NCBI RefSeq assembly: GCF_006345805.1
Contig: NC_042999.1
Location: forward strand, 167,710,001 to 167,774,000
Reading direction: 5' to 3'
DNA length: 64,000 nucleotides
Source: Octopus sinensis
Lineage: Eukaryota
A program made the position numbers and the translations under genes. The notes under the pieces are model-generated. The model had not been told where the DNA came from. It saw only the letters and a program-made list of their open reading frames with translations, and made no database searches. The stretch's first letter is position 1, and every line of letters begins with the position of its first letter. This document shows positions 55,347-56,063 of the stretch, one piece after another.

Positions 55347-56063
55347 TTACATTTTTTCCATAAATAATAAAACAATGTCAAGCAATTTGAGATGAAATTT
55401 AATATGTCTTTTTGTAATGATGTTGTCACTGATTTCATCCCAAATATCATATCCAGTTTTAATCAGTGTGGTATAATGGCCTACCCTAGATGTTGGTCAT
55501 CTATGAATAACAGCAGCTTTTAGAGTAAAATTTGTGCCAAATATTTGCTGTCTTTTTGAACTGAAGTTCATTATATCATGTTTGATACTTTCATCCATAT
55601 TAATATTTTGATTAATTAAAAATCTATTAACTTGGATAACAAGATATTTGAATTCAGGAAGAAATTCAATTCTGGAAGTAATTTCATGTTCAATATTGAG
55701 TGAACATGTTTCACAATTTTTTGTAAGTGTTGTGGTTTTAGTAATCAAAATTTCAAATTGTTGAGGACCATTCATTGGTTGCAAAAACAATTCTTCTTTT
55801 AAATCAATAGGTAGTTGTGATTGTCTACCACAACCAGGAATTGTATTGCAGTTGCAAATTTCATTTAAAAAGATGTTGCAAGTATGTTGATGCAGTCTAA
55901 TGCATCTAAACTTTCGTTGAAATTCCATTTCAAAATGAAGATAAATTTCTTTCCGAAATTCATGAGCACATAGTTGACTTCCATCATTAAATCTTCCACC
56001 AATAATCCTTTTTAAATTTGCGACAGTGTTTCGATTATGATAAAGAATATTTGGGCATGTGAT
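55347..56063 (-). pseudogene. Intronless ubiquitin-specific protease (peptidase C19)-like frame; Cys box missing, one internal stop
   Basis: Manual translation: GRFNDGSQLCAHEF (QQDAHEF-like), CN..CG and CETC Cys pairs, LPEFKYLVIQVNRF (LP..L.I.L.RF-like), LKAAVIHR*PTSRVGHYTTLIK..WDEISD (His box plus Asp). The TGA at 55497-55499 sits where Gly (GGA) is expected. Confidence 0.7.

What the first reader, a model, noticed from the sequence alone, without database searches (positions are those of the whole stretch)
55347..56063. Orphan intronless deubiquitinase (USP/C19)-like frame hidden beyond the called ORF
Seen: the listed 143-aa ORF extends in frame on both sides to ~238 codons with a single stop. 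It shows USP-type boxes in the right order: QLCAHEF, two Cys pairs, LPEFKYLVIQVNRF, HR*PTSRVGHY and WDEISD. The stop is one base from the expected Gly codon, and the catalytic Cys box is cut off at the 5' boundary. The DNA is very AT-rich and intronless, unlike a typical host USP gene. Established: several DNA transposon groups and large DNA viruses carry accessory cysteine proteases. Inference: this is the relic of a USP-carrying mobile element or endogenous virus, or a divergent retrocopy.
Basis: partly seen in the sequence, partly recalled or inferred. Interest (0 to 1): 0.75.

Follow-up and report, generated by a model that had tools for sequence, protein, structure and literature searches.

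The report
Dead deubiquitinase piece in octopus Helitron
This is a broken, neutrally decaying piece of a ubiquitin-protease (USP) gene inside a shortened, multi-copy transposon, likely cut down from a rolling-circle Helitron like its sister families, whose transposase ends in the same protease; such cargo was listed in 2024, so it is mostly a known kind.

Summary
The frame is real: Pfam UCH E=4e-7, above cut-off only with the stop read as X; USP fold; stop confirmed by identical contigs in two runs. It is neither virus nor retrocopy. It lies in a 2.2-kb remnant (54408-56638) of a repeat family whose complete copies have a terminal hairpin, 11-bp asymmetric inverted repeats and a ~150-bp fold-back at the other end. 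Twelve other near-full copies exist, all broken; dN/dS is about 1. The Cys box was removed by an internal deletion. A sister family in the genome reads OTU-Rep-PIF1-USP, shares a unique Cys/His insert and has a similar right end. Intact single-ORF DUF6570-Rep-PIF1-USP proteins occur in sponge, insects and metagenomes; their endonuclease-less clade swaps USP, OTU or Ulp1 at the C-terminus. No autonomous copy of the window's own family was found, so its link to a RepHel is inferred. HELIANO (2024) already lists UCH in HLE2, but as a separate ORF. The in-frame fusion and long fold-back were not found in my paper searches, though this scan has noted both before on other DNA, the fusion also in this genome.

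The parts
54408..56638 (-). Remnant of a non-autonomous element (family A), likely a Helitron2/HLE2 deletion derivative; lacks the first ~183 nt (hairpin and left inverted repeat) and the last ~15-20 nt
   Evidence: BLAST against a complete 2,210-nt USP-less copy; end alignments
55347..56052 (-). USP (UCH/C19) pseudogene fragment, lacking ~40 aa including the catalytic Cys box; in-frame deletions of 24 and 6 nt; natural stop retained
   Evidence: relative P0002 (75% identical) keeps the Cys box
55497..55499 (-). Premature TGA in the His-box region
   Evidence: zero-difference contigs in runs X2 and X5
56053..56638 (-). Surviving left arm, non-coding, with pieces of other common repeats; deletion junction to the USP at 56053/56052
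54408..55197 (-). Right arm, shared with the more abundant USP-less derivative
54408..54577 (.). Terminal arm of the fold-back; holds the 11-bp inverted-repeat motif at 54428-54438
54732..54884 (.). Inner inverted copy of the terminal arm; motif copy at 54843-54853
56641..57570 (-). Truncated LINE reverse-transcriptase fragment abutting the lost left end; not part of the element
   Evidence: Pfam RVT_1 E=1e-10

Best explanation
The frame is a dead fragment of a USP deubiquitinase domain inside a multi-copy non-coding element, likely an internal-deletion derivative of a Helitron2 (HLE2) transposon whose RepHel protein would have ended in this USP. Shown: the USP identity, the broken neutral copies, the element ends, and the Rep-PIF1-USP sister family and intact fused proteins. 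Inferred: one deletion joined the left arm to the last ~235 codons, removing Rep, helicase and the Cys box; the element was then copied in trans by a RepHel; a second, independent deletion of the same parent gave the commoner USP-less form. The fragment itself does nothing. In the parent, the fused USP most likely stripped ubiquitin from RepHel or its covalent DNA adduct to escape proteasomal removal (my estimate ~55%; untested).
For: Multi-copy: 13 near-full matches of 42, self included, at 82-87% nt. All 12 others carry a stop and at least one frameshifting indel; dN/dS 0.67-1.25 in 12 of 12 pairs. Sharp shared ends with a 10-bp hairpin and 11-bp inverted repeats; 76 left ends within 1 mismatch, 0 for the reversed control. 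Sister family B: OTU E=5e-8, Helitron_like_N E=6e-11, Pif1_2B E=1e-5, UCH Cys box E=0.003, colinear with intact P0030 from Rep to USP. The window USP groups with the helicase-fused P0003 (Octopus bimaculoides) at SH-aLRT 97, among fused USPs, and shares a Cys/His insert matched only by P0001-P0004 of 149 proteins. A and B right ends are 51/83 and 48/83 identical; 0 and 1 of 2000 shuffles, 0 and 2 of 3000 random windows reach the score. Both have the same 5' hairpin layout and a fold-back. Intact single-ORF DUF6570-Rep-PIF1-UCH proteins exist; 12 of 17 checked match both Cys- and His-box patterns.
Against: No autonomous family-A copy was found. The Cys-box region of P0002 gave 0 matches in the genome, and none of the 30 fetched of 150 helicase hits carried family-A ends or an A-type USP. 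A and B USPs are only ~35% identical. A local-score test of end similarity was weaker (6-16 of 1000 dinucleotide shuffles reached it), and blastn of the whole A element found no arm homology in the B loci. The USP tree is the quick search, with long branches and only 6 cellular-type rows. DUF6570 was not found in family B. The target site was not resolved. No biochemical test of any Helitron USP was found in the papers searched.
Confidence: 0.88

Rival explanations
1. A non-autonomous element captured a USP fragment secondarily from another Helitron family or a host gene, so that its ends and the USP have different parents.
For: USP-less relatives are far more abundant (summed contig depth on the arms is mostly one to two orders above the USP; not a copy number). 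No family-A RepHel was found.
Against: USP, downstream region and right arm run in the same order as in family B, whose right end is similar. Sister copy L075 has its own hairpin variant and a slightly longer USP 5' part, which fits independent deletions of USP-bearing parents.
Confidence: 0.07
2. Endogenous fragment of a large DNA virus carrying a USP.
For: Compact, intronless, AT-rich USP; giant viruses encode such USPs (recalled).
Against: Dispersed copies share hairpin and inverted-repeat ends. Flanks seen in the printed output hold helicase/Rep, LINE and simple repeats (output cut in part). Nearest relatives are helicase-fused.
Confidence: 0.02
3. Processed pseudogene of a host USP.
For: Intronless and 5'-truncated.
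Against: Among 55 protein matches in the genome none is a close spliced parent; hits outside the family are 28-40% identical fragments. The cellular USP36/42-like rows form a separate clade (98). The 3' side is a transposon arm, not poly(A).
Confidence: 0.02
4. A domesticated pseudo-DUB (ubiquitin-binding) gene at this locus.
For: The window copy has only in-frame deletions and one stop, while the other 12 have frameshifts.
Against: dN/dS against 6 of 6 copies is 0.69-1.09. Two in-frame indels arise by chance about 1 time in 9. The Cys box is gone and the stop is real.
Confidence: 0.01

Closest known systems
UCH-bearing HLE2 elements, subgroups c and d (HELIANO, Li et al. 2024, PMC11417382; sections 22 and 23 read whole, other passages, two supplement look-up terms; figures not seen)
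   Same: Pfam UCH (PF00443) carried by HLE2 elements; clade without AP endonuclease; DUF6570 in the intact relatives.
   Different: The paper counts UCH among 17 domains in separate ORFs and draws c/d mostly from lungfish and axolotl. Here relatives carry it in frame at the RepHel C-terminus in invertebrates, and the slot alternates with OTU and Ulp1. Membership of c/d was not tested.
Helitron2 of Bao and Jurka 2013 (PMC3627910, passages), including reversed-ORF members; FoHeli3-5/HLE2-reverse (PMC5148889, PMC11417382, passages)
   Same: Short asymmetric inverted repeats; one lies next to a terminal hairpin about 27 nt from the end; hairpin upstream of the ORF as in reversed members.
   Different: The other end has a 70-190-bp fold-back with a 0.2-1.1-kb loop instead of a short hairpin; its inverted repeat is ~30 nt, not 0-2 nt, from the end; flanks are TA-rich rather than clearly T^T.
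HINE/DINE-1 non-autonomous Helentron derivatives (Thomas et al. 2014, PMC4067079, passages)
   Same: Internal-deletion derivatives with subterminal inverted repeats and a palindrome, outnumbering their parents.
   Different: Parents there encode an endonuclease; here the C-terminal slot holds a USP, and a piece of it is retained.
Helitron VTD deubiquitinases (Erven et al. 2022, PMC9741609, passages)
   Same: A DUB inside the Helitron ORF, shown active in vitro and proposed to prevent proteasomal degradation of transposition proteins.
   Different: Different DUB class, in endonuclease-bearing Helentrons; USPs were not tested.

Membership tests
USP/UCH (PF00443) | Profile hit above gathering threshold | tested here: met
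   30.3 vs 23.9 bits with X at the stop; not met by the open part alone
USP/UCH (PF00443) | USP fold | tested here: met
   Foldseek PDB top hits USP12/21/46, E 5e-12
USP/UCH (PF00443) | Catalytic Cys box (active enzyme) | tested here: not met
   Deleted in the window copy; present in P0002 and in family B locus L063
USP/UCH (PF00443) | His box with downstream Asp | tested here: met
   GHY...WDEISD aligned, but behind the stop
Helitron2/HLE2 | RepHel in the HLE2 group | tested here: inconclusive
   Met for sister family B; no RepHel found attached to family A
Helitron2/HLE2 | Short asymmetric terminal inverted repeats | tested here: met
   11-bp pair in complete family-A copies; the window keeps only the right one
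Helitron2/HLE2 | Terminal hairpin next to an inverted repeat | tested here: met
   10-bp stem, 4-nt loop; different stem sequences in A, L075 and B; lost from the window copy
Helitron2/HLE2 | Insertion between T and T without duplication | tested here: inconclusive
   Flanks are TA-rich; of 3 complete copies tested only one gave microsatellite-type empty-site matches
Helitron2/HLE2 | DUF6570 marker | tested here: inconclusive
   Present in intact fused relatives; not found in decayed family B
Helentron (EN-bearing HLE2) | C-terminal AP endonuclease | tested here: not met
   0 of 68 labelled rows in the clade carry EN; USP follows the helicase in family B
HELIANO subgroups c/d | Placement on their RepHel tree | not tested
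   Their sequences were not fetched
Endogenous viral element | Linked viral hallmark genes | tested here: not met
   None in the printed frames of 10-kb flanks (partly cut) or in 10 window frames scanned
Processed pseudogene | Close spliced parent, poly(A), target duplication | tested here: not met

The most novel reading that the evidence does not exclude
The fragment marks a widespread, endonuclease-less Helitron2 lineage whose transposase carries an exchangeable C-terminal ubiquitin/SUMO protease (USP, OTU or Ulp1, swapped repeatedly) and whose octopus members end in a long fold-back kept across three divergent families. That would mean rolling-circle transposases need a tethered deubiquitinase to survive host removal of their covalent protein-DNA intermediates, and that a long fold-back can replace the short Helitron2 hairpin as an end signal.
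Probability: 0.45. Interest if true: 0.62.

Novelty: new variant of a known kind. Interest (0 to 1): 0.33.

Why it matters
The locus itself is inert. Its lineage matters modestly: repeated, independent fitting of unrelated deubiquitinases at one position of a transposase points to a ubiquitin-based host defence against rolling-circle transposons, and intact fused proteins (for example P0030-P0032) make this testable. The fold-back end is a practical marker for elements that detection tools built on short terminal repeats may miss.

Tried and rejected
Search for longer homologues with the window protein: 0 of 479 candidates; a helicase-USP query was needed. Profile search at similar length returned only 3 known proteins, so host USP sampling for the tree stayed thin. 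Genome search with the Cys-box region of P0002: 0 matches of 21 candidates, no positive control. Helicase search: 150 matches, 30 loci fetched, none with family-A ends; L114, L116 and similar are endonuclease-type Helentrons outside the clade. blastn of family A against family B/C loci hit only shared common repeats. Empty-site test uninformative. Sequencing runs: no RNA holder listed. Careful USP tree did not finish. Idea that the fold-back arms are homogenised within each copy: rejected; within-copy identity 0.898 equals between-copy 0.896-0.909 in 12 copies, so the arms were alike in the master and decayed neutrally. Idea of a shared breakpoint between the USP and USP-less forms: not needed; two independent deletions explain it. 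Paper searches: (0 hits for Helitron+octopus+ubiquitin-specific). The bioRxiv supplements and all figures were not seen; HELIANO Fig. 7 and its supplementary figures may show UCH position.

Full report
Observation. The minus-strand frame 56063-55347 has 238 codons, one internal TGA and the quoted motifs. With X at the stop it passes the Pfam UCH cut-off (E=4e-7, 30.3 vs 23.9 bits); the open 188 aa alone hit nothing. A predicted structure (pLDDT 74.9) matches USP12, USP21, USP46 and USP30. Contigs from two of four laid runs match 55411-55531/3 without a difference, so the stop is genuine. The closest protein, P0002 (75% identical, from a Logan contig), continues about 40 residues upstream through an intact Cys box; homology with the window begins at 56052.

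Copies. A DNA search of the genome gave 42 matches, 13 of them near-full including the window, at 82-87% identity. Nine (L002, L004-L011) share flanks and are one insertion later duplicated, or assembled redundantly, beside a 42-nt exon-like unit. All 12 other copies have a stop and at least one frameshifting indel once the shared 8-nt loss in the L002 group is counted; dN/dS was 0.67-1.25 in 12 of 12 pairs. The fragment has been decaying neutrally since it spread.

The carrier. The USP lies in a repeat unit. Commoner relatives share the left arm (to 56053) and the right arm (from 55197) but hold ~300 other bases between. Complete copies are ~2.2 kb, start (TA)TC, then a 10-bp stem with 4-nt loop, then an 11-bp motif whose reverse complement lies ~30-35 nt from the right end; flanks are TA-rich. 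76 left ends match within one mismatch, 0 for the reversed control. The last ~155 nt are repeated in reverse ~220 nt upstream: both arms in 20 of 36 loci examined, one arm in 5, none in 11. The window copy spans 54408-56638 and has lost its left end against a truncated LINE.

The parent type. A protein search found more distant USP relics. In family B (L061-63, L069-71, L115) the USP follows a PIF1 helicase and Rep on one strand: OTU E=5e-8, Helitron_like_N E=6e-11, Pif1_2B E=1e-5, UCH Cys box E=0.003, colinear with an intact protein from Rep to C-terminus. P0003, named as Octopus bimaculoides XP_052827946.1, has the helicase end and USP in one ORF. Four things tie A to B. The USP tree joins window, P0002 and P0003 at 97 (quick tree). 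A Cys/His insert is matched only by P0001-P0004 of 149 proteins. The left ends have the same layout with a different stem sequence. The right ends are 51/83 and 48/83 identical, beyond nearly all shuffles and random windows in a global test but weaker in a local test (6-16 of 1000). A fold-back of the right end also occurs in 3 of 5 B loci and 4 of 6 loci of a third family C. Against this, no family-A RepHel was found, so the link is inferred.

Wider lineage. A helicase-USP query gave 168 long proteins, 120 listed. Many are single ORFs DUF6570-Rep-PIF1-UCH; named fused proteins come from Rhodnius, Cyamophila, Dysidea and Artemia, the last two records lacking the Rep part. 12 of 17 checked match both Cys- and His-box patterns; the 5 misses were not inspected. 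In a FastTree of 118 of the 120 helicases plus 5 octopus rows, a clade with support 99 holds 71 rows: 27 with C-terminal USP, 26 OTU, 1 Ulp1, 1 other, 13 none (many truncated), the 3 family-B rows, and no endonuclease. USP and OTU alternate, in one case between close relatives (P0070/P0083 against P0085). The sample is biased towards USP by the query.

Mechanism. Shown: a dead fragment in a non-coding multi-copy element. Inferred: an autonomous element lost Rep, helicase and the Cys box in one deletion and was copied in trans; a second deletion gave the USP-less form. For the parent, HUH Rep proteins bind DNA covalently and such adducts are ubiquitinated and degraded (recalled). A tethered USP protecting RepHel is my best guess (~55%), in line with the proposal for Helitron VTDs (PMC9741609, passages). 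Alternatives are polyprotein cleavage or chromatin signalling (PMC4067079, passages). Read on the strand opposite the ORF, the ends map onto Helitron2 (PMC3627910, passages): inverted repeat then hairpin at the 3' end, with the 5' hairpin enlarged to a long fold-back. This mapping is my inference.

Known versus new. HELIANO lists UCH as almost exclusive to HLE2, enriched in subgroups c/d, and in a separate ORF; its Table S10 lists HLE2 in an octopus. Reversed ORFs are known. I did not find the in-frame fusion, the swapped slot or the long fold-back in seven searches; figures and most supplements were not seen. Earlier unchecked notes of this scan, looked up after I had reached this reading, report the fusion repeatedly, once in this genome, and a fold-back end in another genome.

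Verdict. A real but dead transposon fragment; a variant of a known kind; interest 0.33.

Noticed in passing
L062, L070, L115 (family B 5' part): OTU domain followed by a CxxC...GKVHLP motif that I recall as typical of canonical Helitron1 N-termini, where DUF6570 is expected; family B may be a chimera with an HLE1 piece and carry two DUB classes.
   Followed up: partly
P0034, P0036: Two tandem USP domains after the helicase (P0034 is from the sponge Dysidea).
   Followed up: no
P0132, P0139; P0105: RepHel proteins with a C-terminal Josephin domain; an endonuclease-bearing RepHel with an N-terminal USP.
   Followed up: partly
L002, L004-L011 (e.g. G000:C9490, C5:115.6 Mb): Duplicated region with repeated 42-nt exon-like units encoding D..YVN/YIN motifs; the USP element sits in the apparent intron.
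   Followed up: partly
L064-L066, L068, L072-L074: Third family (C) keeping only the USP His-box end, with its own right-end fold-back (about 70-190 bp arms, ~1.1 kb loop in L065, L066, L073).
   Followed up: partly
L075 (G000:C2:156.6 Mb): Sister family with two left termini 1.8 kb apart and a changed hairpin stem but the same 11-bp repeat.
   Followed up: partly
window 26868-27929: Decayed mariner transposase (HTH_48, Transposase_1).
   Followed up: yes
window 5780-8265, 43157-45685, 56641-57570: LINE reverse-transcriptase fragments; 46000-49000 and 52700-53400 are microsatellite blocks.
   Followed up: partly
L081, L083, L091 right flanks: The same short repeat end sits directly in the TA tail at the element's right end in three copies.
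   Followed up: no
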